From a virus (Duplodnaviria > Caudoviricetes), in IMG/VR virus record IMGVR_UViG_3300001580_000006, positions 1 through 64,000 of that record: 64,000 nt of DNA. One strand, written 5' to 3'. Every line of letters begins with the position of its first letter. The first letter of the stretch is position 1. Below the pieces are notes generated by a model. That model was not told where the DNA came from. It did no database searches and saw nothing but the letters and a program-made list of their open reading frames with translations. Position numbers and translations under genes: made by a program. Positions 38,705 to 55,400 of the stretch are shown in pieces.

Positions 38705-39488
38705 TCTTCCAGATAGCATAAGGGAGAAGCTTCTAGACTGGAAAGTAGAGCATGGGCATCTGTACATTGCGCAGTTTCGTAAGCAACGCTTAAGTGAGAC
38801 TGGTCAGTATGAGACAGATGCCCTAGCTCCCTGGCTATTTGCCATACTTCGAGAGCTTAAACTTAAGGAGTATATGGCCTATTGTGATATCGCTACGTAC
38901 GATAACACAGCTGCCGCATTTAGTCTGGTTAGGCGGTGCCTACTAACTTGCGAAAATGAAAATGGCGAGCACCACTCTATATCAAACGAACCTCATACTA
39001 TGGACTATCTGTTTGGCGTATTGGTCAGTATGTCTGGGTTCTTTGAGGGTAAGGTGCACGCTGCACAGGTAGAGGCCAGGGCAAGCTATGGTAAGTTATA
39101 CAAAAACTTCATAGTACCTCTAATATCTAATTATGGCTTTAGTTTGGACTATCTTGGTAATTCAACTGACACAGATATAGCTGAGATTGCCATAATTCTG
39201 CAGAAACAACGTAGAGAGCGTCCACCAATAAACGGTGAGCGTGACAAGACTAAGGCGTTAACGCTTATGTCAGCCGATCATTCATCCGAGTTGCTACGAG
39301 AAAAGATGGAACACGATAGAAACGGCGGCGGAGAACGCATAAATACCGACGTAGAGAACCTAGCAATACGTGCTAACTTTGGCGAAATCGTAACAAATAG
39401 ACCTGTTCCTGATGTCACAAAATTAAAGAAATTCGACCCAAAAACAATGATGCCAAAGTTTACCCATAAGAAAGTAGATGGCAGATAG
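38682..39488 (+). CDS. tail assembly chaperone-like protein 2 (paralogue with extension)
   Basis: N-terminal half parallels 38330 (RELKLKEY..RRCLL..VLVSMSGF). Confidence 0.55.
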   Translation: MSRLGDYNLPDSIREKLLDWKVEHGHLYIAQFRKQRLSETGQYETDALAPWLFAILRELKLKEYMAYCDIATYDNTAAAFSLVRRCLLTCENENGEHHSISNEPHTMDYLFGVLVSMSGFFEGKVHAAQVEARASYGKLYKNFIVPLISNYGFSLDYLGNSTDTDIAEIAIILQKQRRERPPINGERDKTKALTLMSADHSSELLREKMEHDRNGGGERINTDVENLAIRANFGEIVTNRPVPDVTKLKKFDPKTMMPKFTHKKVDGR

Positions 39489-40074
39489 TAGAGGGCAATA
39501 TCAGGCTCAAAGAGGGGCCGGCCAAAACCTAGTAAAGGCGGTGGTCGGCCTTCGCCCTAAGTGCTCAGAGGAAACTAAGGCAAAAATAAGAGCGGCACTA
39601 ACTGGCAAAAGCTTTATTACAGATAGTGGTAGGGCAAGGATACGTGAGGCCAACAAAAGGCGTAAAGTTTCTCCAGAAACTAGGGCTCGGCTAAGCGCAG
39701 CGCTTATTGGAAACAAACGTAGTGCTGGTAAAAACCAAAAGCCGCACTCAACGTATTGTGGCCATAAAAATCACTTCTGGAAAGGTGGAGTTACTATTAT
39801 TAACCACGGGTTAAGACTGGCTGTAGTTGCTACTCACAAGTATGGCATATGGAGATTATCTATTTTTGTTAGAGATAGCTTTATCTGTCAGGATTGTAAG
39901 CGTAAAAATCTGCGCCTACACGCACACCATAAGAAGCATTTCCAGACTATTATTGACGAATACAACATAACCACAGTAGAGCAAGCAATAGCTTGCGAAG
40001 AACTATGGGATATAAACAACGGTATTACACTCTGCAAACGTTGTCACAGAAAGCGACATAATGCGCAACAATGA
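39478..40074 (+). CDS. HNH homing endonuclease, NUMOD3 repeats (family A)
   Basis: CSEETKAKI, SPETRARL; WKGGVT; RDSFICQDC; AHHKK; TLCKRCH. Confidence 0.88.
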   Translation: MADSRGQYQAQRGAGQNLVKAVVGLRPKCSEETKAKIRAALTGKSFITDSGRARIREANKRRKVSPETRARLSAALIGNKRSAGKNQKPHSTYCGHKNHFWKGGVTIINHGLRLAVVATHKYGIWRLSIFVRDSFICQDCKRKNLRLHAHHKKHFQTIIDEYNITTVEQAIACEELWDINNGITLCKRCHRKRHNAQQ

Positions 40075-43000
40075 TAAATAGGGATCCAAATAACGAGCAA
40101 CGGCAAACTAGTAGTAATCTAGTAAAGGCGGTTGCTGGTATAGGTTTTAGCTTAGTAGCCTTCACGCTTCTGGAGCGCCCGCTCAGAGGTGTGGGACTAG
40201 CTTTGTCTCAGAGGGCTGGTCTAGCAATGAAGGGTGCGTCTTCTACTTTAAGCACAGCTTGGAAAGCAGCTGCTAGCGAAGCCGTAGAGATGCCATCTGG
40301 AGTAGCCGGCACGATTGGTAGATCAGCTGCTGGCTGGAGCCGCACTGCAGAAGCGTTGGCCGCCGAGGGGCAAAAAGGCAAATACGTTCTTCCTGGTCCG
40401 GCAAGAGTTCTTGATCACTGGATGCGCGGCGCATCTGCAGAGTACTCTAACCTTAGACAAAGTGCTTCTGGGGCCTATAAATCATTTACATCTGCATGGA
40501 AGCCTGGAGGGGCTGCAGCCGAAGCTGCAACAAGAAATGTACCAGCCGAGCTACGTGAAAGAGCAACGTCTATTGGTAAGTTCAAGGCCTTCTTTGGCAA
40601 TACCAACGATAGGGGTATGCGCTGGGCCGGTGCCGGCCAGAAGTGGTTTGGTCAGTATCTCACAACCTTGCCCTCCTTCTATCTAGCTGAAAAAGCCACT
40701 GGTTTAATAACCAGACGCGAGGGCGAGTCTAAGAAGAGAGCTTTCTGGAATCTTCCAGGGCACGCTTACGATTTTGCCAAGTTTGCAGTTTCGTTTGCCC
40801 CAGGTGACCTTCTATTCCGTGGTGCTGGAAAAGCAATGAGCGCTGCTCTACATGGCGGGGCCTACAAAGTAGGTATGGCAGCCCGCACACCAGAAGGGCA
40901 GAAGATAGCAGGAAGCTTTGCTGGACTAATATCAAAAGCTGGTGACTTTGGATACAGGGTACAGCAGGCATCCAAAGCGTTTAGTGAAGGCTACCACTCA
41001 CACAACTCCTATACGAATTCTGGATCCACTGTTACTAGAGTTGCAGAAAAAGCTGCTAATGTATTTGCTGGTGCGCTGCGTGGGGCTACCAATTTCTTAG
41101 TAAAAGCTTCTGATAGCAGTATACGCCGTAAGTCCCTTTCATCTCAGGCTGCTAGCCGCCTACACGGGGCGTGGACAGAGGCCGCCTCCTTGGGTGGAAG
41201 CACTTCTGCTGCAAACCAGGCCGTAAGAATAGTTGGACGACAGGGTGGCTTATTTGAGTTTGGGCAGGTAAAGAAATATAATATGATGGAGCAGTTGCTT
41301 GGTGTTAAACAGCAGCGTCGCTCAGCAGATGATTTTATAGGGCTAGTCACCAAGGAGTATGGCCAAGGCGGCTTCGCTGATGCCGTGGCAGGGGTATTTA
41401 AGAGTGGAGCAGGTAGACGAAGCGGGTACCACGCCAACTACAGACTTCCAGGCGACTACACCCAAGGCGACCTATCTTGGATTCTACCAGAGAACTTAAA
41501 GAAGGGTGCCGCGTCGGTTCTTGCGTCTGCCTCTATTACAATACCAAAAATAGGGACGATACGCCCATTCCAGTTTATGCGCGTGCACAGCGTCCTTACC
41601 CCAAAACACTATATTGGCGGAGAACGAGACCAATACTTTGCTACGCTTGCCGAGCAGGACCCACGTCTGAAGAAAATAGCGGAAACATTCCACCCTGGCG
41701 ATCCAGCTAGTGTAGCATATAATAAAATAACAAGTGACAGTGGTATATTTTCCGGTGTTCAGGCTGAGCAACTGGGAACTCAGTTCCAGATACTTAAAGG
41801 CTGGAATCCTGGAGTTCTTCACGCAAGTAGAGGCGGCCTTACCGTGGCTGCTGGTGAAAAGTTGTTCTTTGTCAATAGTGGAGGAAAGGCTGCCACTCTT
41901 AGTGGGTTTAAAGCATTTCCAGTACAGGAACACGAACGCCGCATAATGAGCAATCTTATCTTTGGTAAAGCTGAGGATAAGTTTAAGACTACTGCCGAGC
42001 TGTCCGCAGAAAAGAGTTGGAATCCTTTACGTGGTTTGCTCGACGGTATTAATAGAAAGCTAGAGATCGGAAGATACGCCAATAAAGAAATGGCGTTTGG
42101 TGCGCACGCTCTTCCAACCGGATACCGCAATCTAACAGATAGACGATCTATTCTAAATATATTCTCAGCCGTACCTACTGATAATGCTGGCTGGGAAGCA
42201 GCTGTTGAACACTATAGGACTATTGCTGGTAGAACCCAGACTGGGGTTAGATCTAGGTCTGCTTGGTTTATCGAAGATTTAGCAGACTTAGTGCATAACA
42301 AAGAAGTACAAGACATAATAGGCAGTAAGGATGCTGGCCTAAGAAAAGCTATTACCGACGAAGCCGAGGCAGCGCGCTATTTGCGGGAGCTGTCTGTGTC
42401 ACAAACTGGCAAGGCGTCGAACCTAGTTGCAACTAGAGTTGGCTGGCTGGCCCGTGAGTTAAACGCAGATGTAGGAGCAGGAGTAGTATCATCCGGTCAT
42501 CGCGGTCTTAATCAAGGTCAGCTTGTAAGATCTGCGAGCTTATTTGCTGGCATAGAGAACCGCGCAGACAAGGCAGAGATATTTGACCAGCTGCTGTCGC
42601 TTAACAGTTTAGATAGAAGAGCAAAAGATTCTCTGCGTGTTGCCAAATTTGATGCTATGCTAGAGGATTCTCTACAGCAAAGGTTATTAGATCTAAGGGG
42701 TGACTTTACGCCGCAGAATATGCAGCGTCAAGCCTTTGAGGCACACCGCACCATCAAAGAAGCTATGATAGATAGCAACATCTCTGGCTCATTACACAGA
42801 ATGACCAAAGATAGATCTGTCAGCTTAGCGTTTGAAAACTCTAGTACGGCCATGGACTTCCTCAGCGATGAATATCGCAGGGGAAGACCCGGGTTAGCCA
42901 GTGTACTACTAGAGGACCGTGGCGCAACTAGAACAGTAATGGACTGGATAAACCCAACAGCTAGTGAGCAACTTACTAGAACCGGGTTGACCAGCCGTAT

Positions 43001-46000
43001 GTTTCTTGAGCGCTTTACCAACATTCTTGGCTTAAGGTCGGATAATGTTTCCAGCAACGCAGCATTATTTGGTAAGGTATTTACTCATAGAATTCTACCT
43101 ATGGCTGGAGCCATTTATGGGCTCAGAGCATTAGACACGTTCACCGACGCCAATCCTCTATTTGCTGGTACTATGCTAGATGAGGGTATATTTGTTGCTG
43201 CCGGCGAACAGGTTGCTAAGACACACTTGCTATCATCTAGGGTTCTGGATGCATCTGGTTTGACTCATGCTTCTAAGTGGGCAGAGGGTTTAATGCCAGG
43301 CTTTATAAACTCTCCGATGGCCCGCTTTACGCGAACAGTAGGTATGCCTTTGGCTGGGTATGGCCTAGGAATGAAATATGGTGGGCTGCATAGTGCAAAA
43401 ACAGGGCTAATAGCTGGTCTTGCATTAGATGCCACCTTAGGCTTTGGTTTAACCGATCTTACAAAGACACATGGCGAGCTGGTAGATGAATACGCCGGCC
43501 GTACAGAGGTTCCTGTCAAGAAAGGTCGTTGGTGGGAATTCGGAAAGACCCCATATGAAGGCACACAGATACAGTATTTCCGGCCGAATTGGTTTGCTAG
43601 GTTAAAGAGTCAGCATCAGTATACACCAGAAGGATTTGGCACTAAATGGGAATCGCTATTATTCCAACCAATTCCATTTATAGATGCTGCTCCTGGTATG
43701 TTAATAGAGCCAGACTGGTACGCTAGGAAGAACTACTTAACAAGACCGTATCCAGTCACATCAAATCCATTTAGCGAAGCAGCAATAGTAGGGCCTTTGG
43801 CTGGTGCTACCATTGGTAGTGTGTTAAACCCACCAAGCGTAATGCACGGGAGGGAGCTTGAATCAGCGCTAACTAATCCTGGCTCAAACGCCAACATGTT
43901 TGGCGGTACCGGGCTAGGAACTAGCGGTAACTATATGGCCGGCACACCACAAGGTGCACAAATTTCAGGGCCATCTGATTGGCAGCAGACGCTTAGTAGA
44001 CAGTTCTACTACGGCATAACCGAACCAGGTGGTTTATTTGGGTGGGCGGCTTCAAACTTGGCGGGCGGGCAGATGCCGCTAGCAAAACCAAATGAGCTGG
44101 CAAGCGCTACAGCAGCACAATCCCAGATTAAGAGGTTTTGGGATCTGAACCTTGGCGGATTTGGTCTCCTTAGCGAACCAATTCGTAGGCTACTTCCTAG
44201 AGAGCTGGCCGCCATCAACAAGATTAACCCAATAATGAATACAATGGCCGACTGGCTACCAGAGAATATGCAGCGAGGTGATCAGTTTGCTTCCATGCCT
44301 GAGGGATCGTTGCGGCTGCCTGGCACTGGTTATGAGACAATGCGTGCCGTAACGCATGCGTTTCCATCTCGTGAATCCCAGCTTGGCAAATCAATGTCTG
44401 AGATTGTGCAAGGTATGCTTGGTATGCCACAATCTATGTCTGAAGAACAAGAAGAAATAATGTCTGGTGGCACTGAAATTCACAGACAGATACAAGAGGA
44501 GCTAACTAGGCAAAACCTTGCTGTAGCAATAGAACAGAACATATATGACCCGTACCACGATATATCTGGTACAGCTGACTTAATACTAAGATATGGTCGT
44601 GAGCAAGCTGTTGGCGAAATCAAGACAAAATCTTTAGAAGCTATGCAGAAACTGTCGGGTCCGCAACAGTCGCACATGAGCCAGCTCAACTTCTACTTAC
44701 ATACTACAAAGATGCGTCGTGGATTCCTTATTTATGCAGCCAGAGAAGACCCGTCAGTGCGCAAAGTGTACGAGTTCAATTATTCTCGTAATATGTTTGA
44801 GCGTGATATGGCAAAGGTTGAGCAGGCTAGAGCTGCGGCAGCTGATTTGCTGACCACCGTTCCAACAACGCACGGAGCATCCTACTCCCACGCCGACCGT
44901 CTAAAGATTCTCGCTGACGTAGCACCAACCTCTGACCAGTACTACAGAGAATTGATGATGACTACAAAGCAGAGCAAGATGGGGCTAATGTCACCAGAGG
45001 AGCAGTACACATACGAGACTGCGTTAAAGCAGCGCAATAGCCAAATGCGCGGCATGGACTTGTATCCAAATAGGTTCCTTGGGAAGATGATGAGCCCAGA
45101 GGCTACTTATAATCTGCAGTCTGAGAACACTAACATTAAGGCTGCCTCCGAATATAATATAGCCGAACGAGCTATGGGTGCTGCCTGGGAAGGACTTCAG
45201 GCTGTGCCAAACCCGCTATCAACCAAGTTCTTTAACTATCAGACACCCGAACAGGCATATCAGCGAGCTCAGATGTATGGCAATCTGGAGCAATCCTGGG
45301 ATCACCCAGTACGTAGCTTTGTTACACCATATGGTCAAAGGTTTCTTGGTTCTAGCAATCCAGTATCAGGTGCTTGGAGAGGAGGTATGGCTGGCTTTCT
45401 GATGGGCGGTCCTGCCGGCGCTGCACTGTTAGGAAGCATGGGTGCTATGTATGGTGGCGGTTATAGTGCTGTAAAGGCCACTACTGGGTGGTCATACCTG
45501 CCAAGCGAAGTTAAAAAAGAACGTGCTTTAAATCAGACATTTGATAGGCTAGCTTTTGCGAAAGGCATGGTGGACAATCAAATGACGGGCAGCCCAGAGT
45601 CGTTTGAGATGGCGCAAAATACCTATACTGCGTGGAACACTGGTAGGTCTAGCTCAATGGCTAACTTTATGAGAGCTACTCCGCACCAGGAACGACAATT
45701 TATGGGGGCGTTTATTAATACCACCGATCCTGCCGAGCGCAATAGAATATTAAAGATGTTGCCTACTCCAGCCGCCGAGGGCTTAGAGCGTGTATGGAAT
45801 AACCAAGAAGGAGCCAGCTTTGCATCACACTCCGGAGCAGAAGACTATGTCGCCTCCCAAGGCATGATGAACCAAGCAAGAAACTGGCAGGCTTTCACTC
45901 CACAGACTATGCAGGCTACCAAAGTTAAGATGATTAAAAACGAAGGGCTGAAGGTCCAAGACTTTGGTCTTGGCTACGCGTCACAACTATATGGTGTACA

Positions 46001-46256
46001 AAACAACCCAAACGTTCCAGATTCTATGAACCTAAGTGATCCGCTAGGGGTGGGGGCTGCCCCATCGGTGCAGTTTGACTCAGTCCAAATTAAGAGACAA
46101 ATAGAGCAGATGCTTATTAATAGGGGTGCTAGAAGCATACAAGTATCGGTCAATGAAGTATCTGGCGTAGAGGCCAGAGGAACTCTCACTATTAACTGTC
46201 GCCAAGATAGAACACAAGACATGCTATCTGTGTTGAGATCAACGAGCAATGATTAA
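40071..46256 (+). CDS. tape-measure-like/ejected giant virion protein with embedded PD-(D/E)XK nuclease domain
   Basis: 2061 aa, A/G-rich, tape-measure position. GTEIH..E..SGTAD..GEIKT..SQLNFY motifs at about 44466-44830. Confidence 0.7.
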   Translation: MINRDPNNEQRQTSSNLVKAVAGIGFSLVAFTLLERPLRGVGLALSQRAGLAMKGASSTLSTAWKAAASEAVEMPSGVAGTIGRSAAGWSRTAEALAAEGQKGKYVLPGPARVLDHWMRGASAEYSNLRQSASGAYKSFTSAWKPGGAAAEAATRNVPAELRERATSIGKFKAFFGNTNDRGMRWAGAGQKWFGQYLTTLPSFYLAEKATGLITRREGESKKRAFWNLPGHAYDFAKFAVSFAPGDLLFRGAGKAMSAALHGGAYKVGMAARTPEGQKIAGSFAGLISKAGDFGYRVQQASKAFSEGYHSHNSYTNSGSTVTRVAEKAANVFAGALRGATNFLVKASDSSIRRKSLSSQAASRLHGAWTEAASLGGSTSAANQAVRIVGRQGGLFEFGQVKKYNMMEQLLGVKQQRRSADDFIGLVTKEYGQGGFADAVAGVFKSGAGRRSGYHANYRLPGDYTQGDLSWILPENLKKGAASVLASASITIPKIGTIRPFQFMRVHSVLTPKHYIGGERDQYFATLAEQDPRLKKIAETFHPGDPASVAYNKITSDSGIFSGVQAEQLGTQFQILKGWNPGVLHASRGGLTVAAGEKLFFVNSGGKAATLSGFKAFPVQEHERRIMSNLIFGKAEDKFKTTAELSAEKSWNPLRGLLDGINRKLEIGRYANKEMAFGAHALPTGYRNLTDRRSILNIFSAVPTDNAGWEAAVEHYRTIAGRTQTGVRSRSAWFIEDLADLVHNKEVQDIIGSKDAGLRKAITDEAEAARYLRELSVSQTGKASNLVATRVGWLARELNADVGAGVVSSGHRGLNQGQLVRSASLFAGIENRADKAEIFDQLLSLNSLDRRAKDSLRVAKFDAMLEDSLQQRLLDLRGDFTPQNMQRQAFEAHRTIKEAMIDSNISGSLHRMTKDRSVSLAFENSSTAMDFLSDEYRRGRPGLASVLLEDRGATRTVMDWINPTASEQLTRTGLTSRMFLERFTNILGLRSDNVSSNAALFGKVFTHRILPMAGAIYGLRALDTFTDANPLFAGTMLDEGIFVAAGEQVAKTHLLSSRVLDASGLTHASKWAEGLMPGFINSPMARFTRTVGMPLAGYGLGMKYGGLHSAKTGLIAGLALDATLGFGLTDLTKTHGELVDEYAGRTEVPVKKGRWWEFGKTPYEGTQIQYFRPNWFARLKSQHQYTPEGFGTKWESLLFQPIPFIDAAPGMLIEPDWYARKNYLTRPYPVTSNPFSEAAIVGPLAGATIGSVLNPPSVMHGRELESALTNPGSNANMFGGTGLGTSGNYMAGTPQGAQISGPSDWQQTLSRQFYYGITEPGGLFGWAASNLAGGQMPLAKPNELASATAAQSQIKRFWDLNLGGFGLLSEPIRRLLPRELAAINKINPIMNTMADWLPENMQRGDQFASMPEGSLRLPGTGYETMRAVTHAFPSRESQLGKSMSEIVQGMLGMPQSMSEEQEEIMSGGTEIHRQIQEELTRQNLAVAIEQNIYDPYHDISGTADLILRYGREQAVGEIKTKSLEAMQKLSGPQQSHMSQLNFYLHTTKMRRGFLIYAAREDPSVRKVYEFNYSRNMFERDMAKVEQARAAAADLLTTVPTTHGASYSHADRLKILADVAPTSDQYYRELMMTTKQSKMGLMSPEEQYTYETALKQRNSQMRGMDLYPNRFLGKMMSPEATYNLQSENTNIKAASEYNIAERAMGAAWEGLQAVPNPLSTKFFNYQTPEQAYQRAQMYGNLEQSWDHPVRSFVTPYGQRFLGSSNPVSGAWRGGMAGFLMGGPAGAALLGSMGAMYGGGYSAVKATTGWSYLPSEVKKERALNQTFDRLAFAKGMVDNQMTGSPESFEMAQNTYTAWNTGRSSSMANFMRATPHQERQFMGAFINTTDPAERNRILKMLPTPAAEGLERVWNNQEGASFASHSGAEDYVASQGMMNQARNWQAFTPQTMQATKVKMIKNEGLKVQDFGLGYASQLYGVQNNPNVPDSMNLSDPLGVGAAPSVQFDSVQIKRQIEQMLINRGARSIQVSVNEVSGVEARGTLTINCRQDRTQDMLSVLRSTSND

Positions 46257-49200
46257 ATATAGTCAACGAAATCGTACATATCATAAGGACGACAAGAAGC
46301 TTTACCATATAGGCTTCTCTGCTGCTGGGCTTGGCCTAACAGCCTTTAGTGCGTGGTCTGGCTATAAGTACTTTATGCAGAAGTACGCAACCTCTTCCAT
46401 TGGCGTGGCTGGCTTTATTAACCATATGCGCAGCAACGTTACCAACATGGTGAGGCAGACTGTTGCTCCAAGCGGAGCTAAGGTTAGCAAAATAAGGTCC
46501 CCTTATATGATGGCTACTAGAGCGCTGCACCCAGAAATCAATAAATTGCATGATGTCGCCGTCGCCGTCCGCAGTAGAGTAGTGGTGGAGTCTTCTGAAA
46601 AACAACTAAGCAACTACTACTCACAGATTGCTAAGATAGTTAAGAAATACAACCTCAACATGACACTAGATGAAATTCGTACTGTCGTTGAGGAGTCGGC
46701 TGCTAATACACAACGCAACGCTTATAATTATATAAATGTTGGTTGGGAAAGCGTTTCTGTTGCTGATTCAAAGAAGAACGCAGCCAAGAGATTTCTACGA
46801 ACAATCGAAGAGTCAATCGAGGCCCCAAAGGCTAAGTTTAGAATGAATAGATATCGCCTATCTAATTATGATGAAGCAGTTAGAACTGGCGAACCACTAC
46901 AACGTAGTGTAGAATTTAAAAAGCATTGGTGGAGGCAATATAAGGATGAACTCAGCACCACTATACTAGCTGGTAGGCAGTCAATTACCGCCACCTCTAT
47001 TGGCAGAACTGCTGGACTTATATATGACAAGGAGGGCGATAAAGCCATAGGTTCTCTGGCAGAACCATTCCGTGCATCTATTGAGCAAGCCTTGGGGCTA
47101 GCTAAACGCACATCACTTACTGGGCAGTCAGGCACAGAGTTTATAAAGCAATATACTAGTGAGCTAGAGGCTAGGCAGTATGCGTTACGAGGAGTTGTTG
47201 GGTCGAGCATAGAAACTGGCACCAAAGATGGATATAACCTGCAGTCTATTATTAATCGAATGAAATCCAATCTAAATAGTCTGAAGAACTATAGACCAGA
47301 TGGCGTGCCAGTAATTGGCGATTATAACATAGAGGCCGTAGAGATGAAGGATGGCTATCGCTATCTAAAACTTACTATTGACGATAGCCCATATTATTTT
47401 GGCCTAACCAAGAAGAGAGGGTTTGACTTCAAGCGTTCTCCTTTTGCTATGGAGACCGACTTATCGCGTCTTACGTATGGCGCTAAAATGGGTACAACTG
47501 CCTCAGAACTAGAAATACTTAGAGACGTGACTGAGAGATTGAATTCACTTCCAGGCCAAATATTAGGTGAACGAAATAGACTATCTGAGAAGACGGGTCT
47601 TGATAAAGTATTTGACAAGTCCAACCTGCGGCTAAAAGTAAAAGATATATTAAACAGAACGCTGAAGTTTGATAGACATGAGACAGGAAGGGAAGCTACA
47701 AACTTCCAGTTTAATACCCGTGCTATGTCTAGAGCAAACGTTGCCCAAGATTGGTTTGGGCGGGTTATGACCGCACACAGCAACAACCCATCTAGGCTTA
47801 CTGAATCTCTAAAAACTATAATGGAGCTAGCTTCAGATAAGTCTAAGGTGGCTACAATAGATATCGAGACCGACATAAGCTCAAAAGGTAAGCCCATAAC
47901 CAAACTTGCTGTATACAAAGAGGGTGCAGCGCCGCTGGTTCTATACACCGAAGCGTTTGGAAAGCAAAGTGCTGAAGCCTATATGCTAACCCAGGGAGGC
48001 ATGGAAATAAAGAACGCCGGCACTAGAGCAGTATTACAGGTAAGAGACGCCCACTATATGGCTCTTGAGAAAGCAGGAGTTGTTAGCAAAAGCACCACGG
48101 CTATGGCACAACAGGTGCAGGATTATCTAAAAGGTGTTTCGACAGTTACATACCATGGTGGTAAAATCGGCGACATCACCCAGTTGGCGGCTGCAGGAAT
48201 TAACTTACAAGGCAAGTATAAGACAGTTGATAGCTACAAGCTAGCAAAATCGTTTGATTTGGGAAGCAAGTCTCTACAGGCTTTGATGGATCTGCACGTT
48301 ACAGAACAAGAATTTGCAGAGATACAACTACAAGCTGAAAATGGGATAATGAAGCATCTTCCAGGAGAAGTACGTGGAAAAGTGCAAGCACACCTCCACC
48401 AACCTGAAATAGATGCCATGGTTACTCATAAATATATGTTTGGCCGTAAGGGCGTAGTTAACCAAGTATTAACGGAGCTTCTTGGTAGCTCAACATACAC
48501 AAATGCCCAAATTGGGGAACTTAGAGCCGTACTTGGCGAGGGGTTTGCCACTACTGAGCTGCTGGCCAAGATTAGACAAAGGGTTGGAGCAAAGATGGCG
48601 TCGCTGTCATACTTAAGCTCTACCGGTAAGAAACAGAAGGCGCAGACTATACTTAATTTAAGATCACCTATGACTGCGCCACAGGTAACTGCACAGTTTT
48701 TTAAAGACCACCATCCGATAATAGTTAATGAAAAGCTTGCTGGAAGGATGAGAATAACCGGACTATCCTCCGCCTTTTCTATACTTGAGGATGGGTCTAT
48801 TAATGAGTCTCAGGCTAGTCGTCTATATGAAAGACTAGCAAAACCAGGCATGAGCCAGATGTTCACCGGTGATGCAATTAAGTCAGACGTTATGACTATC
48901 ATAGGCCACCCCGGAATGCAGTTAGGCGGTGCTGTTGTTTCTAAGACTGCTGCTAAATCATTGATGCCTGTAGTAGAGCACACTGTAGATTTGGAGCCAG
49001 GCGACTCGCTATCAGGATTTGTTATAGATTATCAAAAGCTAATTAACAAGCCATCACGCACACAAGCCGACGAATTGCGCTTGTCAGATCTTGGTAGAGA
49101 GTTAAAGCGTGGATTTGCTAAGCGCGCCAATATATCAGACGAGGACCTGGTGGCCAACTTTGACAACATCACTTTCGATATTGGAACCAAAGAAGGAGGG

Positions 49201-52194
49201 CTACCGAGGGTATCGCTGCAGACACCGGTTGGTATAGAGGGCAGCTCCATAATTATGCAGCGCGGTAAGTTTACATTATCCCCGGCCAACAAACAGTTTG
49301 ATGCACTTTTCAGATACTCACGGCGCAAATATGGCCACGAGGCAGCACTGGCCGTTGGCGGAGAATTCGGCCGTACAAACTCCATGCAGCTATTTATTGA
49401 GGGAACTGCAATGAACGCAGTTGCCTCTGGTAGAGACTCTACGAGCAGACAGGTCAGGGACAAAACTGCAGCAACTATGAGGTTACTTCGTAAGGTAGAA
49501 AGAAACCCAGATGACCTCGATTCCTACCAGAAACTTCTTCAAACTACTAAGGATCTACGTAAAGAACTAGGCCTGAGATATACTGCTACTAATAATCTAG
49601 GATCGGCGGAAGAGAAGCAGATGCTAAGACAGCACTTCCAGTTACCTGAATCTGATGCTCGTTGGGACAAGATTGTTGATACCTTGGTAAACGATAAGGC
49701 TGGTGAAGGTGTTATTCTAGAGCGTTTTGCGCAGAAGGGTTCGAAGCCGCTATACTACGCGTTGCAGTCGGAGTTATGGAAAACAAAGAGTCCACCGTGG
49801 TTTCAACTTTATGCTAACGAAGGAAACGTTAGGGCTGGTATTAAAATCACCAATGACATGTTGGTTGGTTTGCAAAATACGCACATGGTATCATACTTGA
49901 AAAGCCAGCTGGGGCAGACTAGAGAGTATCGTGAGATAGCCAACCTTAACGACGTTATGCGCAAGATGGGCGTAAGCGCCCGCGGCAACAGTGGCGGAAT
50001 GATGGCTCAACTCAGCACTGCGGCAGAAATGCCAGAGAATGCTGGCTTCTTCCAAGATGTCACTGATAGAATAAATGGTATGATACATCAGGTTAGGGAG
50101 GGCGGTGCCAGGGGCTCTGACATTATTAAAGCACGAAATGAATTGCTCGACGAAATACTGAAGGCCGGCAAGGTTCCAATATATACTGCACCAGGAATTA
50201 AGGTTCCAGTAGTGGTTAGCAATTTGGTAAACCCTGATCCTGTTGGCAACGTCCACCTTGGCGAAGGAGCCAGGACCTTATATAGTGCTATGAGCGAGGC
50301 TATTACTAGCCACAACGGTAGAGTTATTGACTGGGCCGAGAACGCGTCTATGGTACTTCCAAGGGCTCTTAATGAATACGGAGACTGGCTAAAAGATGTA
50401 ATTAAATCCGGTCGTCAGCTTGAGGGATCATACATGCCCGGCTTTGCTGCAAAGCCTATGGCTGATGTAAACTTCTATGATAAGGTAAAGACCGGTCAGT
50501 CGCCATTCACTATTGGTGTTGGAAAGAAAGAATGGAACACTATAGAGAAGCATTTTGGCAACCCAGCAGACCTAAAGTCTTGGCTGTTTCGTTACCCCAC
50601 CACTGGCTCCCCAAGCATTGTAAATTTCGTTCAAGCTGAGGCCGAGTCAGGCATATTTGTAAATCCTGTGCTAGAACTACTAATGAATATAGACACCGAT
50701 GATGATAAAATTTATACATCAATTTACTCTAAGAAACTCGACCAAGAAGCAATTAGTTCACTAGAAAAAGAAATAGCCGGCCTAAGTGGCGACAGCACTA
50801 GATTACCTATTGCAAAGAGGGAACTATTTAACATAAAACGACATATGGGTAGAATGGAGAAGGAGCTTAGTCGTCGCTCCATTACGCAGGCTCAGCAGTA
50901 TAATCACCTAGTCCGTACCTTTGAAAGGTCCAATGCAACCACCGCAGAGGGAATCCTTGCCGAGATGCAGGGAGCATATACGCAATTTGCAGGAAAGGAA
51001 TATAATATACTGCAGACAGTGGCGGCCTCTCGTCTGCCAGTTGTGCCACTGGTTGGTAACGAACTAGGTATGTTTGATACCGAGTCAGGCAGGCTTATAA
51101 CTAAGAGGTTCCAAGGTACCACAAATGCTGCAATATTTGGTGTGTCTAAGTCACACGCCCGGGCACTAAAAAGTATAGCCTCTAGAGCAGGGATGACGGC
51201 TAGTGAAGAGATTGTTAGGGCAGCCGCTGGCTTTGAGGACCCAGTAATAGAGGCATTGCGCACCCAAGGCTTGATTGGGCAATATACCAACGTAATGACT
51301 AATCTTACAGATTTGTACGGTTCTATGCGCAGAAACCCAGAAGCGCGTTGGGGCCTACTAACCTCCTGTAGGTTAGATGGTGAGACTATGGGTGATGCCA
51401 GCAAAAGGTTCAATACTGACATTGAGCTACTTCGTACTATGACAGATCTTCGAGAAGATGTCATAAAGCAAGTGAAGGGTAATGATCAACAGAAGTTAGG
51501 AACCTATCGTCAGATGGTTAATAAGCTGTCTAAAATAGGTACTAGTGAGAAGCTAGCTGAAGGCGGCGAGCCATGGCTCGAAGAATTGGCTGGACAGTTT
51601 GGCCCAAATGCCGAGAAAATGATTGAGGCTATGAATAGAGTCAACCGCGTGCTCTATGCTCATACTGGTGGAGCAGGAGTTAGAGATAAACTATTTGGTC
51701 GCCCTCTATACAACGAACTCGGTGAACGTATGTTTATGAAGGACTTTACAGAATTATCTGCTGGCTCCATTATGGCAAAGAAAGTCGAAGAGCAGGCGTC
51801 TAAGTCGAAACTTAAACTACCCAGAGAGGTAGCTATAGGTTTGGGTGTTCTTGGCCTAGTTAAGTTCTTCTCCCCCAATCAGATGAAGGTGTTGGGTGAA
51901 ATGCCTGGACAAGGCGGAGAGTTGTGGGACTACAGAAGCGGTAAGTCAGAACTACCATTCTTTACCCCAGTAGATGTGCCGCAATATACCTGGGAGTCTG
52001 ATGCCAGGGTATCTGGAATTGGCCTATCGGACCGTTTTAATAAGATAGCGGCATCTATTATACCAAAGATCCGTCGTGGATACGGAGATCACTCTAATGC
52101 CAGAACAGCTAGCAACGTTACTTATGACAATCGTCGACGCCTAAGTAGCCGGTTTGATTCTAAGTCGGTGTGGCAGGACGTCAATAGATTCTAA
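46249..52194 (+). CDS. putative virion single-chain two-barrel RNA polymerase with DEDDh exonuclease domain
   Basis: FRYPTT..IFVNPVLELLMNIDTDDDKI (compare beta' NRxPTLH..HPLVCxxYNADFDGDQM); beta-like motifs; DIET..YHG..GD..HQPEIDA exonuclease. Confidence 0.68.
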   Translation: MIKYSQRNRTYHKDDKKLYHIGFSAAGLGLTAFSAWSGYKYFMQKYATSSIGVAGFINHMRSNVTNMVRQTVAPSGAKVSKIRSPYMMATRALHPEINKLHDVAVAVRSRVVVESSEKQLSNYYSQIAKIVKKYNLNMTLDEIRTVVEESAANTQRNAYNYINVGWESVSVADSKKNAAKRFLRTIEESIEAPKAKFRMNRYRLSNYDEAVRTGEPLQRSVEFKKHWWRQYKDELSTTILAGRQSITATSIGRTAGLIYDKEGDKAIGSLAEPFRASIEQALGLAKRTSLTGQSGTEFIKQYTSELEARQYALRGVVGSSIETGTKDGYNLQSIINRMKSNLNSLKNYRPDGVPVIGDYNIEAVEMKDGYRYLKLTIDDSPYYFGLTKKRGFDFKRSPFAMETDLSRLTYGAKMGTTASELEILRDVTERLNSLPGQILGERNRLSEKTGLDKVFDKSNLRLKVKDILNRTLKFDRHETGREATNFQFNTRAMSRANVAQDWFGRVMTAHSNNPSRLTESLKTIMELASDKSKVATIDIETDISSKGKPITKLAVYKEGAAPLVLYTEAFGKQSAEAYMLTQGGMEIKNAGTRAVLQVRDAHYMALEKAGVVSKSTTAMAQQVQDYLKGVSTVTYHGGKIGDITQLAAAGINLQGKYKTVDSYKLAKSFDLGSKSLQALMDLHVTEQEFAEIQLQAENGIMKHLPGEVRGKVQAHLHQPEIDAMVTHKYMFGRKGVVNQVLTELLGSSTYTNAQIGELRAVLGEGFATTELLAKIRQRVGAKMASLSYLSSTGKKQKAQTILNLRSPMTAPQVTAQFFKDHHPIIVNEKLAGRMRITGLSSAFSILEDGSINESQASRLYERLAKPGMSQMFTGDAIKSDVMTIIGHPGMQLGGAVVSKTAAKSLMPVVEHTVDLEPGDSLSGFVIDYQKLINKPSRTQADELRLSDLGRELKRGFAKRANISDEDLVANFDNITFDIGTKEGGLPRVSLQTPVGIEGSSIIMQRGKFTLSPANKQFDALFRYSRRKYGHEAALAVGGEFGRTNSMQLFIEGTAMNAVASGRDSTSRQVRDKTAATMRLLRKVERNPDDLDSYQKLLQTTKDLRKELGLRYTATNNLGSAEEKQMLRQHFQLPESDARWDKIVDTLVNDKAGEGVILERFAQKGSKPLYYALQSELWKTKSPPWFQLYANEGNVRAGIKITNDMLVGLQNTHMVSYLKSQLGQTREYREIANLNDVMRKMGVSARGNSGGMMAQLSTAAEMPENAGFFQDVTDRINGMIHQVREGGARGSDIIKARNELLDEILKAGKVPIYTAPGIKVPVVVSNLVNPDPVGNVHLGEGARTLYSAMSEAITSHNGRVIDWAENASMVLPRALNEYGDWLKDVIKSGRQLEGSYMPGFAAKPMADVNFYDKVKTGQSPFTIGVGKKEWNTIEKHFGNPADLKSWLFRYPTTGSPSIVNFVQAEAESGIFVNPVLELLMNIDTDDDKIYTSIYSKKLDQEAISSLEKEIAGLSGDSTRLPIAKRELFNIKRHMGRMEKELSRRSITQAQQYNHLVRTFERSNATTAEGILAEMQGAYTQFAGKEYNILQTVAASRLPVVPLVGNELGMFDTESGRLITKRFQGTTNAAIFGVSKSHARALKSIASRAGMTASEEIVRAAAGFEDPVIEALRTQGLIGQYTNVMTNLTDLYGSMRRNPEARWGLLTSCRLDGETMGDASKRFNTDIELLRTMTDLREDVIKQVKGNDQQKLGTYRQMVNKLSKIGTSEKLAEGGEPWLEELAGQFGPNAEKMIEAMNRVNRVLYAHTGGAGVRDKLFGRPLYNELGERMFMKDFTELSAGSIMAKKVEEQASKSKLKLPREVAIGLGVLGLVKFFSPNQMKVLGEMPGQGGELWDYRSGKSELPFFTPVDVPQYTWESDARVSGIGLSDRFNKIAASIIPKIRRGYGDHSNARTASNVTYDNRRRLSSRFDSKSVWQDVNRF

Positions 52195-52195
52195 G

Positions 52196-52228
52196 TATTT
52201 TTGATTACAATCACTTATGTGGTATAAT
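52196..52228 (+). promoter_or_regulatory. promoter with extended -10, probably leaderless transcript
   Basis: TATTTTTGATT...TGTGGTATAATAAAGTATG; the 19-mer is identical to 4747-4765; ATG 52234 begins 6 nt after the -10. Confidence 0.65.
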
Positions 52229-52233
52229 AAAGT

Positions 52234-52428
52234 ATGTTGAACATCGTAATTTCTTGTGGGTATGATGGCGATGCTGGGGCTTTAGCCTCAGCGATTGCAG
52301 ACTACATTAGGTCGCAAAGTGGCCAGGACATAACTGTTCGTGTAAATACACTTGATGACCCAAACACCGTGTCCAAGATAGCTGCACTAAACGCAGCACA
52401 ACTAGTTAAACGGAGACCCAATATTTAA
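52234..52428 (+). CDS. small hypothetical protein
   Basis: 64 aa, after the promoter, TAATG-coupled to the next gene. Confidence 0.55.
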   Translation: MLNIVISCGYDGDAGALASAIADYIRSQSGQDITVRVNTLDDPNTVSKIAALNAAQLVKRRPNI

Positions 52429-55400
52429 TGGCATTTAAAGGCAAAGATAGTAGCAACGTACGCTGGGCAAGCCTACATGCAGTTCTAAAAGATAAGCTTA
52501 CTAAGCTCGAAGAACTTGTCAGCAAAGACGTCGATATGCCTCAGTTCCAAATAACTGACGGCCTTCGCACTATTCGCGAGCAGGCAGAGCTGTATGCTAA
52601 GGGCCGCACTAAGCCAGGTACTATAGTAACGTATGCGAAAACCCCACAGGCCCACGGGTTTGGTTTAGCCGTAGACGTAGTTCCACTTAAGGATGGTAAG
52701 AAGGACTACAACAACAAATCCGCTTACGATAAGTTAGCAGCCTATGCAACACAAGTTGGATTAAGATCTGGGCATAATCAGCCGTTTAAGAAGAAAGACG
52801 GATCTCTTTTTTATGACCACCCTCACATAGAGGTGTGGAACTGGAATACATATGTAGATAAAAACGCACAGCTCATCGGTGATGAGTTTGTATTTGACTC
52901 CAACGTACAGCAGAACCTTGATGTATATAGCCAGAATGGATTCTTCACAGACGCTAATTCTACCACTGTTTATGGTCTAGGTGCGTACGGCGACGCCATA
53001 ACATCGAAAGTAGATGTGTTGGTAGAAGATGATGCCTATTTCTATGAGGCTGTATCTAGCGCCAATGCTTATAAGGACGGTGCGTTTAGATTTGGCGATG
53101 TGTGGCTGTCCGTTCCACCAACAACCATAGATATAGCCAGCTTTTCAGCAAACCAAGAAATACCTGCATTTCGTACTCCTGGCAACCCAACTAAGCAGGG
53201 TGATCTTAGGGAGATGCGGTTTGATGTGCAGATGATATTTCCGCACGCCCAGACTATCAACGGCGAGCTAAGACCACTTATTGCACAGTTCTTTGCATCA
53301 CCCATTATTAGTGTTGAGAACCAGTTTGTGCAGATGGCTGCTGCTCCAGACATACAGCCAGCAGAAAGTGAAGTTAACTATGAACTAGAAAAGCAAACTA
53401 GTGCAGCTGACCTTACTGGTGCTAACTTCGCTACGGAGATCGACGCCTGGCAAAAGACGCAGGCAGATAATGCCAAGCTGTTTAGGGAAGGCAAATTTAA
53501 GGAACTAATAGATAAGTTTGACGGTGTGCCCAAATCGGAGAAGGAGCAGGTTGATCGTCTAATAGCCAAAGCCAAGAAAGACAGGAAGGTTCGATATTCT
53601 AGGTATGGGTGGGCGCTCAATGATGAACCACTTTTGTTTTGTTTCAAAGAATTACACATAAATACTGTATCAGGTTTTCCATCAGCTATTCAGGCACACG
53701 CCGTACTAAACTTGTTTAACTCACGCCCATTTTGCAAGCAAGTAGCGTGGCTAAAGGATTGGAGTGACGTCTCTGCACAGCTAACATACGGCGATCAACT
53801 TAAAAGTTGCTTACGTGAGGCTAAGGACGCAAGTACTGTAGAGCCCCCTGTAGTAAATCATGTATCTAGCCCAGAATTCTCAACTCCTTATAAAGACTAT
53901 TACTCTCATTGGCTTATAGAAGGCAAGGCTCTGCGCGAGGCTGATGGGCACACAGTGCCACCACTTAGTTCTAGCTTGAGTTCACCGCTACACCAAACCC
54001 TTGGAATGCTGTATCTAGACGAGTTTGATAATACCAACTTTGTCAATAACATTGTGATGTCTTGGCGAGGCGCGTCAAAAAGTATGCTTCAGTCAGAGCT
54101 GGAAAGAATTCGTAATACCAAAAACCGCCTTGTTAAAATTAAGGCTCAATTGTTAGATTATAGGGCAAAAGACTTTCCTGATATATCTAGTGGTTTTAGG
54201 GATGGTATAGCTGCTCTGTGGAAAACTCCAGCACTGTTAAAGCAATATTTTGATAGAGTGGTAGAAAAAACTGGTGGTCTTGTTTGGATAACAGCCGCAA
54301 CCTTAAAGGGTGATCTTGGGTTTAACAGCAAAGACGCAGAAGATAAATTCAAAAAATACTTTGTCAACACTACCGGCATAACAGCTTATGATTTGTATCA
54401 ATACGTAACTACTAAGGTTGAGGATAAAGACAAGCGCTGGCTTCTTACTAGGCTAACTGATCTCGTACTTCGAAGTAACACCACCCAGGAGCACGCCAAG
54501 ATAATAGATCAGTGTATTGAGCTTTCCAATGAAGCCGATAAACAACTCGGTGTATATAAAGATGGCGCCAGTTCTATCCACAGTATAGACCTATCAGAAT
54601 ACAGCGGCACGACCATATCTGGTATGTCAGCTAGCATAGCAAATAAATTTGCTAGAATACCGCTGTTGTCTGAGTTCATACCTACTTATCAACACATGGG
54701 TAGGTCAAACATTAGTGTTACAATGAGTCTTCAGACAGAAAATCTGGAGATAGTATCTGAGCTGCGCAGGCTAGAACTGGAGACATCTATAGCTCAGCAG
54801 ATGAGAGACCTTATTACGCCAATAGAGTTACAAAAGTTTATTCCAGGAAGTGTAGTCGCTGTTACTGGTAATGCGTTCTTTAGCATGTTAGGTGTACATA
54901 ACGTAGTGGTTGGCAATGTTCAAACCTCCACTGTTCCTAATAGACCAGGACTGTGTAACGTAACTATTGAATTTATTCAAGCAGACTATGTTCTTCACGA
55001 ACACGAGCAAATTCAACCATATAATATACTTCCAGCTAATCTTGTTGCTATCACAGCAAAAAGTATTCTTGATGCCGGTGATACAAAGGTAGTTGGCTGG
55101 CTTAATACGATTAAGAATTCTAAACCTGATTTATACAATCAGTTAGACTGGGAAGTAATGCCAGCATATAATGGGGTATTGGATCTTATTAAAGAATATG
55201 GGCAGCAGATAAATTATGATGTTGTTAATAAACTAACTACTGAGGCTACAGCCACAGCACCGCCATCCACAAAATCTAATGTATTATCTATAAGTGGCAC
55301 AACAAGCGACAATTTTTGGCAGAGTGCCGTAGAAAGAGCAGAACAGGCAACGCCACGCCCATATACTATTGGATCTGAACTTAAGAAAGTAAATACTTTA

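What the first reader, a model, noticed from the sequence alone, without database searches (positions are those of the whole stretch)
46249..52194. Single-chain two-barrel RNA polymerase with a variant NIDTDDD active site in the tail module
Seen, in order: DVMTIIGHPGMQLGGAVVSK (compare beta NxxVAFMPWNGYNFEDSILVS); GIEGSSIIMQRGKFTL..AVGGEFGRTNSMQLFIE (compare GDKMAGRHGNKGVI..LNPLGVPSRMNIGQILE); PFTIGVGKK; FRYPTT; FVNPVLELLMNIDTDDDKI (NIDTDDD at 50686-50706; compare NADFDGD); and a bridge-like EALRTQGLIGQYTN. Known: crAss-like phages package single-chain DPBB RNAPs, and SPbeta YonO is a single-chain relative. Inference: a virion-injected RNAP in a myovirus. All three metal-binding Asp are kept, but the motif Gly, the beta ED and one beta Lys are substituted, so activity may be altered or lost.
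Basis: partly seen in the sequence, partly recalled or inferred. Interest (0 to 1): 0.88.

Follow-up and report, generated by a model that had tools for sequence, protein, structure and literature searches.

The report
Divergent RNA-polymerase-like giant tail protein
A 1981-residue orphan protein in the tail module of a 223-kb jumbo myovirus sits where related phages encode giant virion proteins with a QDE-1/RDR-like two-barrel RNA polymerase core, and it keeps their catalytic motifs plus a DNA-polymerase-type exonuclease domain, but its own fold could not be verified.

Summary
The ORF (46249-52194, +, 1981 aa) and every quoted motif are real. No sequence method finds a homologue of it: Pfam, PHROGs, PDB, phage GenBank and 1.84 billion protein representatives all drew blanks.

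Its gene position is conserved. It lies between giant protein A (homologue of Bacillus phage 0305phi8-36 ORF145) and giant protein C (homologue of ORF147, lysozyme-bearing), upstream of the baseplate wedge. At that slot, 46 of 69 distinct proteins from related phages carry RxP...(G/A)DxDxD at about 70-80% of their length.

Direct similarity is only marginal: hhalign P = 0.017 to the jumbo-phage subgroup. AlphaFold on P0001 failed (pLDDT 37). The Gly-to-Asp change is unremarkable, because that position varies across the clade.

New here: a DEDDh exonuclease-like domain at residues ~530-725.

Verdict: probably a hyper-divergent virion RNA-polymerase-like protein in the tape-measure slot, a new variant of a known kind. 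Membership rests on synteny and motifs, not on a tested fold.

The parts
46249..52194 (+). ORF P0001, 1981 aa. Giant 'B-slot' protein; its start overlaps the stop of giant A by 8 nt.
47836..48423 (+). DEDDh 3'-5' exonuclease-like domain, residues ~530-725. ExoI D538-I-E540-T, ExoII G637..D642, ExoIII H717-x4-D722.
   Evidence: The motifs are shared with G005_B and four J-group proteins. A profile of the six hits the exonuclease domain of archaeal family-B DNA polymerases (2jgu_A, E 7.5e-4) and Cas2-DEDDh (E 0.008). No Pfam hit for P0001 alone.
48886..49401 (+). The second-barrel assignment is unconfirmed.
   Evidence: The strings are present. MAFFT places GIEGSS..RGK..NKQF opposite the family's GI..MDxLKK..NQxF block, but hhalign gives P = 0.53.
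50491..50748 (+). Beta'-type DPBB-A-like motif set, residues ~1415-1500: FTIGVG (1420-1425), R1448-Y-P1450-TTG, P1473-VL, NIDTDDD.
   Evidence: Collinear with VVGI / RHPxIG / SPxVGxAGDxDxD of the related family. hhalign to the J-group profile aligns RYPT..DxDxD in register, P = 0.017. phmmer to G001_B: 1432-1492 vs 2451-2514, domain E 0.012. Composite motif in 8 of 20,000 shuffles.
50686..50706 (+). NIDTDDD. Candidate metal-binding triad D1482, D1484, D1486; position 4 is Asp instead of Gly.
51826..52113 (+). C-terminal module, residues 1860-1955: short hydrophobic segment plus tail. This is the only part with detectable similarity to the nearest relative's B protein.
   Evidence: the genome search E 1.9e-4. 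phmmer domain E 1.4e-4, 1860-1955 vs 2193-2291 of G005_B. Best, non-significant, hhalign hit to the family's C-terminal hydrophobic region.
40071..46256 (+). Giant protein A, 2061 aa. Conserved core at aa ~1100-1900 and a Cas4/PD-(D/E)xK-like nuclease domain at aa 1438-1592. Homologue of 0305phi8-36 ORF145, a virion protein.
52428..59099 (+). Giant protein C, 2223 aa, with an N-terminal lysozyme-like domain. Homologue of 0305phi8-36 ORF147.
61446..62714 (+). Baseplate wedge (gpJ-like) protein D. It closes the conserved A-B-C-D block.
52201..52427 (+). Sigma70-like promoter TTGATT-16-TGgTATAAT (52201-52228) and a 64-codon ORF (52235-52427), in the gap between B and C.
   Evidence: Consensus match only.

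Best explanation
P0001 is most likely the hyper-divergent member, in this phage, of a class of giant virion proteins found in 0305phi8-36-like, mostly jumbo, myoviruses. These proteins are encoded in the tape-measure slot of the tail module and carry a QDE-1/RDR-like single-chain two-barrel RNA polymerase core.

Proposed mechanism (inferred, not shown). The protein is assembled into the virion together with giants A and C and is expelled through the contracted tail with the DNA. Its DPBB-A loop (D1482, D1484, D1486) binds Mg2+ for template-dependent RNA synthesis of the first phage genes. This would parallel P23-45 gp96, crAss gp66 and N4 vRNAP.

An upstream DEDDh exonuclease-like domain (residues ~530-725) adds a 3'-5' nuclease function of unknown target.

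Shown here: gene position, motifs, the fold of the related family and profile-level exonuclease homology. Inferred: the fold of P0001 itself, virion packaging and activity.
For: 1. Conserved A-B-C-D synteny with more than 80 viral contigs and two cultured phages. A, C and D are BLAST-homologous; for the nearest relative G005, E is 5e-90, 8e-72 and 1e-55.
2. 46 of 69 distinct B-slot proteins carry RxP...(G/A)DxDxD at ~70-80% of their length, as P0001 does at 75%.
4. Cluster 1 and the jumbo-phage J group are homologous across the catalytic region (hhalign E 2.3e-10).
5. P0001 against the J profile: the top hit is RYPT..DxDxD in register, 37% identity over 49 columns, P = 0.017. The P-to-D spacing of 9 is the same as in G001_B.
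6. Another sequence singleton in the B slot, Acinetobacter phage ME3 gp036 (SREP..GGDHDQD), has no BLAST link to the family. A BFVD model that is most likely its C-terminal half (an 802-residue second part of an uncharacterized ME3 protein; identity inferred from size) matches the cluster-1 model at E 3.3e-8. If so, loss of sequence similarity with retention of the fold has a precedent at this slot.
7. P0001 shares the DEDDh-plus-RNAP-motif architecture with G005_B (exonuclease motif at 541 vs 538) and with J-group members.
8. 0305phi8-36 ORF145 and ORF146 (slots A and B) are mass-spectrometry-identified virion proteins according to the GenBank notes.
9. Weak lead: the nearest Pfam-bearing ESM-Atlas cluster for residues 1395-1720 is RdRP PF05183, score 0.79.
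Against: - There is no statistically solid similarity of P0001 to any polymerase. Pfam PF00562, PF00623, PF00940 and PF05183 were not found, and PDB phmmer found nothing.
- HMMs of the cluster-1 catalytic region do not rank P0001 first even within its own genome. A J-group HMM ranks it first, but only at E 0.17.
- hhalign against cluster 1 gives P = 0.37.
- An ungapped two-block PSSM test was negative: 766 of 2000 shuffles scored as high.
- AlphaFold on residues 860-1800 failed even with family rows added (pLDDT 36.6), so no barrel has been seen in P0001.
- The second barrel with its two basic residues was not located.
- The B slot is not always a polymerase. 0305phi8-36 ORF146 and a 9-member cluster lack DxDxD.
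- The genome has a second RNAP-motif candidate (P0008), so RNAP function need not reside here.
Confidence: 0.62

Rival explanations
1. P0001 is a structural tape-measure-like or ejection protein with no polymerase activity. The RxP...DxDxD stretch would then be either a chance resemblance or a decayed relic (pseudo-enzyme) of an ancestral RNAP module.
For: - The slot's protein in 0305phi8-36 is annotated as a hypothetical tape measure protein and has no DxDxD. It shares only ~50 C-terminal residues with cluster-1 proteins, not with P0001.
- Twenty-three of 69 B-slot proteins lack the motif or are truncated.
- Profile tests of P0001 are marginal or negative.
- The predicted secondary structure of 860-1800 is mostly helical, at low confidence.
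- DxDxD alone occurs in 18% of shuffles.
Against: - All three Asp, the RxP and the P-h-h elements are kept in the right order, spacing and relative position.
- In every sequence-divergent lineage that has the motif, the three Asp are invariant while their neighbours vary freely. That pattern indicates selection on catalysis.
- The nearest relative has a canonical ADFDSD.
Confidence: 0.25
2. The functional enzyme is the DEDDh exonuclease. P0001 would be an injected nuclease effector for host nucleic-acid degradation or anti-defence, and the DxDxD region would serve another role, for example metal-dependent DNA binding.
For: The exonuclease-like domain is the only part with a database-level profile match (E 7.5e-4 to PolB exonuclease domains). 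Neighbouring giant A also carries a nuclease domain, Cas4-like at E 7e-17.
Against: The exonuclease domain is absent from most cluster-1 proteins, whereas RxP..DxDxD is the common denominator of the slot. The two functions are not mutually exclusive.
Confidence: 0.08

Closest known systems
P23-45 gp96, tape-measure-fused virion two-barrel RNAP (PDB 8H2N/8H2M; Chaban et al. 2024, PMC10770324)
   Same: - A virion RNAP-like module associated with the tape-measure slot of the tail module.
- Recognisable essentially only by DxDxD.
- The genome may also hold a second, smaller RNAP candidate (P0008), as P23-45 has gp64.
   Different: - P23-45 is a siphovirus, with the RNAP at the N-terminus of a 5002-aa TMP. 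Here the phage is a contractile-tailed jumbo myovirus.
- Here the module lies at ~75% of a separate 1981-aa protein flanked by two other giants.
- There is no sequence similarity.
- A DEDDh exonuclease-like domain is present here.
QDE-1 / plant RDR2 cellular RNA-dependent RNA polymerases (PDB 7Y7P, 2J7N, 7W84)
   Different: They are eukaryotic RNA-silencing enzymes, and sequence identity is 8-13%. The comparison was made with P0003, a relative, not with P0001.
crAss-like phage phi14:2 gp66 virion RNAP (PDB 6VR4) and SPbeta YonO
   Same: Phage single-chain two-barrel RNAPs. gp66 is a ~2180-aa virion-packaged protein encoded beside other large virion proteins.
   Different: gp66 belongs to a podovirus and is thought to be capsid cargo. 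YonO is an ~840-aa non-virion enzyme. Neither appeared in the structural hit lists shown, which is inconclusive, and there is no sequence similarity.
Bacillus phage 0305phi8-36 ORF145-ORF146-ORF147 tail block; Acinetobacter phage ME3 gp035-gp036-gp037
   Same: Same gene order, with homologous sheath, tube, A, C and baseplate genes. ME3 gp036 has SREP..GGDHDQD at 76% of its length. A BFVD model that is most likely its C-terminal half shares the fold of the cluster-1 model (E 3.3e-8).
   Different: 0305phi8-36 ORF146 has no DxDxD. Neither protein is annotated as a polymerase, and neither shows BLAST similarity to P0001.

Membership tests
Two-barrel (DPBB) RNA polymerase superfamily | DPBB-A carrying a DxDxD metal-binding loop (Iyer et al. 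2021, PMC7824862) | tested here: inconclusive
   Motif level: met. D1482-x-D1484-x-D1486 is preceded by RYP and P-V-L in beta' order. Fold level: the AlphaFold model is unusable, pLDDT 36.6.
Two-barrel (DPBB) RNA polymerase superfamily | Second barrel (DPBB-B) supplying two basic residues | tested here: inconclusive
   Candidate K/R pairs exist at 949-955 and at 1007/1015. Alignment to the family's invariant K639/K645 region is not significant (hhalign P 0.53).
Two-barrel (DPBB) RNA polymerase superfamily | Bridge helix and trigger loop after DPBB-A | not testable with these tools
Two-barrel (DPBB) RNA polymerase superfamily | Significant sequence or profile match to a curated RNAP family | tested here: not met
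   PF00562, PF00623, PF00940 and PF05183 were not found. Pfam, PHROGs and PDB gave none. Many accepted two-barrel families also fail this test (PMC10770324).
Two-barrel (DPBB) RNA polymerase superfamily | Template-dependent RNA synthesis | not testable with these tools
   Requires biochemistry.
B-slot giant RNAP-like proteins of 0305phi8-36-like myoviruses (cluster 1 + J group, defined here) | Encoded between the ORF145-like (A) and ORF147-like (C) genes, upstream of the gpJ-like baseplate gene | tested here: met
B-slot giant RNAP-like proteins of 0305phi8-36-like myoviruses (cluster 1 + J group, defined here) | RxP ... (G/A/x)DxDxD at ~70-80% of the protein length | tested here: met
   P0001 has R1448-Y-P ... 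D1482 at 75% of its length. Others: G005_B 77%, ME3 gp036 76%, P0003 73%, G001_B 70%.
B-slot giant RNAP-like proteins of 0305phi8-36-like myoviruses (cluster 1 + J group, defined here) | BLAST- or HMM-level similarity to other members | tested here: not met
   P0001 is a singleton at BLAST E 1e-4. Only its C-terminal ~95 residues match G005_B. hhalign to the J group is marginal, P 0.017. G005_B and ME3 gp036 are equally isolated.
DEDDh/DnaQ-like 3'-5' exonuclease (residues ~530-725) | ExoI DxE, ExoII D and ExoIII Hx4D motifs in order, with profile similarity to known DEDD exonucleases | tested here: met
   Motifs. The six-sequence profile A7 hits PolB exonuclease domains (E 7.5e-4) and Cas2-DEDDh (E 0.008). 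P0001 alone gives no Pfam hit. Fold and activity were not tested.
Tape measure protein | Gene after the tail chaperone genes and before the baseplate hub; length proportional to tail length; protein lies in the tail tube lumen | tested here: inconclusive
   Three giant genes (A, B, C) occupy the slot. Only the 0305phi8-36 annotation calls B a 'hypothetical tape measure protein'. No TMP family hit.

The most novel reading that the evidence does not exclude
Contractile-tailed jumbo phages related to 0305phi8-36 and ME3 inject a fast-evolving two-barrel polymerase physically fused to a family-B-type DEDDh proofreading exonuclease. That combination is unknown among RNAPs. It could mean a virion polymerase with intrinsic 3'-5' editing or transcript-cleavage activity, or even a two-barrel enzyme acting on DNA, as PolD does. 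The extreme divergence of the slot, with invariant Asp triads, would then reflect an arms race with host defences that target the first injected protein.
Probability: 0.12. Interest if true: 0.85.

Novelty: new variant of a known kind. Interest (0 to 1): 0.6.

Why it matters
Virion-delivered two-barrel RNAPs are documented for crAss-like podoviruses and for the P23-45 siphovirus, where the enzyme is fused to the tape measure protein. If the reading here holds, a large and mostly uncultured lineage of (jumbo) myoviruses carries an analogous enzyme in the tape-measure slot. That lineage includes the cultured Acinetobacter phage ME3.

These proteins evolve so fast that even orthologues in sister genomes lose all detectable sequence similarity while keeping the Asp triad. 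Three consequences would follow:
- the 'inject your own polymerase' strategy would extend to contractile-tailed phages beyond the phiKZ-type multisubunit enzymes;
- thousands of unannotated giant tail genes would gain an explanation;
- ME3 gp036 would offer a tractable experimental system.

The fused DEDDh exonuclease-like domain is an unreported companion of such polymerases.

Tried and rejected
- Direct homology searches with P0001 all found nothing. These were Pfam and PHROGs, PDB phmmer and tblastn against 50,697 phage records. The word-indexed search of 5.8 billion proteins and exhaustive phmmer of residues 850-1800 against 1.84 billion representatives were also blank apart from an identical fragment. 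So were the IMG/VR pattern scan and ESM-Atlas features for 850-1800.
- hhalign and HMM comparisons with the cluster-1 family were not significant.
- A two-block ungapped PSSM (RxP block plus DxDxD block) built from 45 relatives gave no support: 766 of 2000 shuffles scored as high. The block misaligns because P0001 has two extra residues between P and the first D.
- AlphaFold of P0001:860-1800 with eight family rows as alignment gave pLDDT 36.6 and no usable model, so no fold search was run on it.
- PF05183 (RdRP) was searched in the genome after the Atlas lead and not found.
- crAss gp66 (6VR4) and YonO did not appear in the structural hit lists shown for the relative's model. This is no evidence against kinship.
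- P0008, the second RNAP-motif ORF, had no Pfam, PDB or phage hit and no homologue in five related records.
- I considered that B might be an ordinary TMP only. This is kept as a rival, not rejected.
Full report
**What is there**

The window is the first 64 kb of a 223,464-bp IMG/VR virus record, estimated 94% complete. Coordinates 46249-52194 (+) hold one uninterrupted ORF of 1981 codons, P0001.

The surrounding genes are a myovirus morphogenesis module: large terminase, portal, major capsid protein, a 1223-aa sheath, tube proteins and a gpJ-like baseplate wedge. The module is collinear with the tail module of Bacillus phage 0305phi8-36.

P0001 is the middle of three consecutive giant genes.
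- A: 40071-46256, 2061 aa, with a Cas4/PD-(D/E)xK-like domain.
- B: P0001.
- C: 52428-59099, 2223 aa, with an N-terminal lysozyme-like domain.

**P0001 is an orphan at the sequence level**

The following searches returned nothing apart from a 100% identical fragment:
- Pfam, PHROGs, PDB sequences and tblastn against 50,697 phage records;
- a word-indexed search of 5.8 billion proteins;
- an exhaustive phmmer of residues 850-1800 against 1.84 billion representatives;
- an IMG/VR pattern scan.

Pfam RNAP models PF00562, PF00623, PF00940 and PF05183 find nothing anywhere in the genome.

**Synteny rescues the analysis**

Giant A has relatives in IMG/VR. In more than 80 contigs an A homologue is followed directly by another giant gene of 1.2-3.6 thousand codons. 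Where the fetched DNA reaches far enough, a C homologue follows, and in the seven loci examined that far a gpJ-like baseplate gene too.

The nearest relative, G005, matches the window's A, C and D proteins at E 5e-90, 8e-72 and 1e-55. Its B protein (2322 aa) matches P0001 only over the last ~95 residues, at E about 1e-4. The B slot therefore evolves far faster than its neighbours.

Two cultured phages share the layout.
- Bacillus phage 0305phi8-36: ORF145 / ORF146 / ORF147. ORF145 and ORF146 are identified in virions by mass spectrometry according to the record, and ORF146 is annotated 'hypothetical tape measure protein'.
- Acinetobacter phage ME3: gp035 / gp036 / gp037.

**What the B-slot proteins are**

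Of 69 distinct B-slot proteins, 46 carry an RxP element followed 20-80 residues later by (G/A)DxDxD, at about 70-80% of the protein length. By BLAST they fall into three groups plus singletons:
- cluster 1: 38 members, including P0003-P0007;
- the J group: 11 members from jumbo-size genomes, with the motif R[YF]PT..DxDGD;
- a 9-member cluster without the motif;
- singletons, including G005_B and P0001.

Cluster 1 and the J group are homologous across the catalytic region (hhalign E 2.3e-10, 201 columns).

An AlphaFold model of the cluster-1 core (P0003:540-1400, eight-sequence alignment) reached pLDDT 67 and pTM 0.52.
- All 50 best Foldseek PDB hits are RNAP beta'-type subunits.
- Isolated double-psi barrels align on model residues 460-612, which hold RxP and DxDxD.

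I conclude that the B-slot family is a QDE-1/RDR-like single-chain two-barrel polymerase family. Neither Pfam nor PDB sequence profiles recognise it.

**How P0001 relates to that family**

Positive evidence:
- It occupies the slot.
- It has the three beta'-type elements in order: FTIGVG at 1420, RYPTTG at 1448, and NPVLELLMNIDTDDD at 1472-1486. MAFFT aligns them to the family's VVGI / RHPxIG / SPxVGxAGDxDxD blocks.
- RYPTTGSPS..F closely resembles RHPTTGPESFQF of one cluster-1 subgroup and R[YF]PT of the J group.
- hhalign of the J-group core profile against P0001:1232-1812 gives this stretch, in register, as its top hit: 49 columns, 37% identity, P = 0.017.
- phmmer against G001_B aligns 1432-1492 with 2451-2514 at domain E 0.012.
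- The composite motif occurs in 8 of 20,000 shuffles and in no other ORF of the genome.
- The Asp triad lies at 75% of the length, as in the relatives.
- The nearest Pfam-bearing ESM-Atlas cluster for residues 1395-1720 is an RdRP (PF05183) cluster. The score of 0.79 makes this a lead only.

Negative evidence:
- HMMs of the cluster-1 catalytic region do not pick out P0001. A J-group HMM ranks it first in its genome, but only at E 0.17.
- hhalign against cluster 1 gives P = 0.37.
- An ungapped two-block PSSM test was negative.
- AlphaFold of residues 860-1800 failed at pLDDT 36.6 even with family rows supplied. P0001's own fold is therefore untested.

There is a useful precedent. ME3 gp036 is another singleton without BLAST links, with the motif SREP..GGDHDQD. 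A BFVD model that is most likely its C-terminal half matches the cluster-1 model at E 3.3e-8. That target is an 802-residue second part of an uncharacterized ME3 protein, and I infer its identity from the size. So at this slot the fold appears to survive complete loss of sequence similarity.

The beta-like barrel motifs at 880-1051 and the bridge-like helix could not be confirmed. MAFFT does place GIEGSS..RGK..NKQF opposite the family's invariant GI..MDxLKK..NQxF block, but hhalign of this region gives P = 0.53.

The suggestion that NIDTDDD (Gly to Asp) implies impaired activity is not supported. In 45 relatives the fourth motif position is G 21, A 14, K 6, R 3, D 1 (DHDDD in L025). It is S in G005_B and Q in ME3 gp036. 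The three Asp are invariant throughout.

Residues ~530-725 carry DEDDh exonuclease motifs: D538-I-E540-T, G637..D642 and H717-x4-D722. The same set occurs at the same position in G005_B (541-760) and N-terminally in several J-group proteins.

A profile of the six sequences hits the 3'-5' exonuclease domain of archaeal family-B DNA polymerases (2jgu_A, E 7.5e-4). The alignment runs over ExoI 'DIET' and ExoII 'TYNGDSFD'. The profile also hits a Cas2-DEDDh chain at E 0.008.

This shared exonuclease-plus-RNAP-motif architecture is further evidence that P0001, G005_B and the J group belong together.

**Mechanism and comparison with known systems**

The most likely reading (about 0.6) is this. P0001 is a virion protein of the tape-measure slot that is expelled with the DNA. 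It carries a two-barrel RNAP core for the first round of phage transcription, plus an exonuclease domain of unknown target.

The closest documented system is P23-45 gp96. It is a two-barrel vRNAP fused to the tape measure protein, and it too is recognisable only by DxDxD (PMC10770324). The differences here are a contractile tail, a separate gene flanked by two other giants, the module at 75% of the length rather than at the N-terminus, and the exonuclease domain. crAss gp66 and YonO are more distant analogues.

The main rival (about 0.25) is a structural tape-measure-like protein whose polymerase motif is a chance match or a relic. 0305phi8-36 ORF146 and a 9-member cluster show that the slot can exist without DxDxD.

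The genome also holds a second candidate outside the window. P0008, at 205013-207643 (-), is 876 aa with FGRYPFNQPGEV...NGDFDQD. It is unverified. If real, it would give a vRNAP/nvRNAP pair as in P23-45. Sigma70-like promoters, for example at 52201-52228, suggest that host RNAP is used as well.

**Verdict**

The RNAP interpretation is the best explanation but rests on synteny, motifs and the fold of relatives. It does not rest on a tested fold or on significant homology of P0001 itself. I rate it a new variant of a known kind (virion two-barrel RNAPs), of moderate to high interest mainly because of three things: the breadth and extreme divergence of the family uncovered, its presence in a cultured phage, and the fused exonuclease domain.

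Noticed in passing
window 47836-48423 (P0001 residues ~530-725): DEDDh 3'-5' exonuclease-like domain (DIET / TYHGGKIGD / Hx4D). It is shared with G005_B and J-group B proteins. A profile of the six sequences hits PolB exonuclease domains (E 7.5e-4) and Cas2-DEDDh (E 0.008).
   Followed up: yes
G000 205013-207643 (-), outside the window; L096:2014-4644:-: An 876-aa ORF (P0008) with FGRYPFNQPGEVQHVRV..(24)..FSNGDFDQD at 444-496. It is a YonO-sized second candidate two-barrel RNAP, possibly a non-virion enzyme. It has no Pfam, PDB or phage hit and no homologue in five related records.
   Followed up: partly
L097:18340-23151 (Acinetobacter phage vB_AbaM_ME3 gp036, NC_041884): A cultured jumbo phage has a 1603-aa 'hypothetical protein' in the same slot, with SREP..GGDHDQD at residue 1217. 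A BFVD model that is most likely its second half (802 aa; identity inferred from size) matches the RNAP-like model of the metagenomic family at E 3.3e-8. It appears to be an unannotated RNAP-like virion protein.
   Followed up: partly
window 40071-46256: Giant protein A (2061 aa) has a Cas4/PD-(D/E)xK-like nuclease domain at aa 1438-1592 (phrog_1706, E 7e-17). It also has a conserved core (KKGRWWEFG .. YNPIRNTMPxWLPG) without any Pfam match. It is a homologue of the 0305phi8-36 ORF145 virion protein.
   Followed up: partly
window 52201-52427: Strong sigma70-like promoter with an extended -10 (TTGATT-16-TGgTATAAT) immediately after the P0001 stop. It is followed by a 64-codon ORF whose stop overlaps the ATG of giant C. 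The nearest relative G005 has a similar ~258-nt gap between B and C.
   Followed up: no
window 39478-40074 and 59707-60393: Two HNH homing-endonuclease genes bracket the three-giant block. These are probably mobile insertions in the tail module.
   Followed up: no
L095:21957-29570 (0305phi8-36 ORF146) and loci L057, L060-L067, L070, L075, L084: Some B-slot proteins lack any DxDxD. ORF146 shares only ~50 C-terminal residues with cluster 1. So the slot seems to exchange or lose the polymerase module while keeping a C-terminal anchoring tail.
   Followed up: partly
L025:12151-16686: A cluster-1 B protein with the motif AMDHDDD, that is, Asp at the canonical Gly position as in P0001's DTDDD.
   Followed up: yes
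BFVD hit A0A075BUT7_2 (Microcystis phage MaMV-DC): An uncharacterized cyanophage protein matches the RNAP-like model at E 9.8e-5. The family may therefore extend to Ma-LMM01-type cyanomyoviruses.
   Followed up: no
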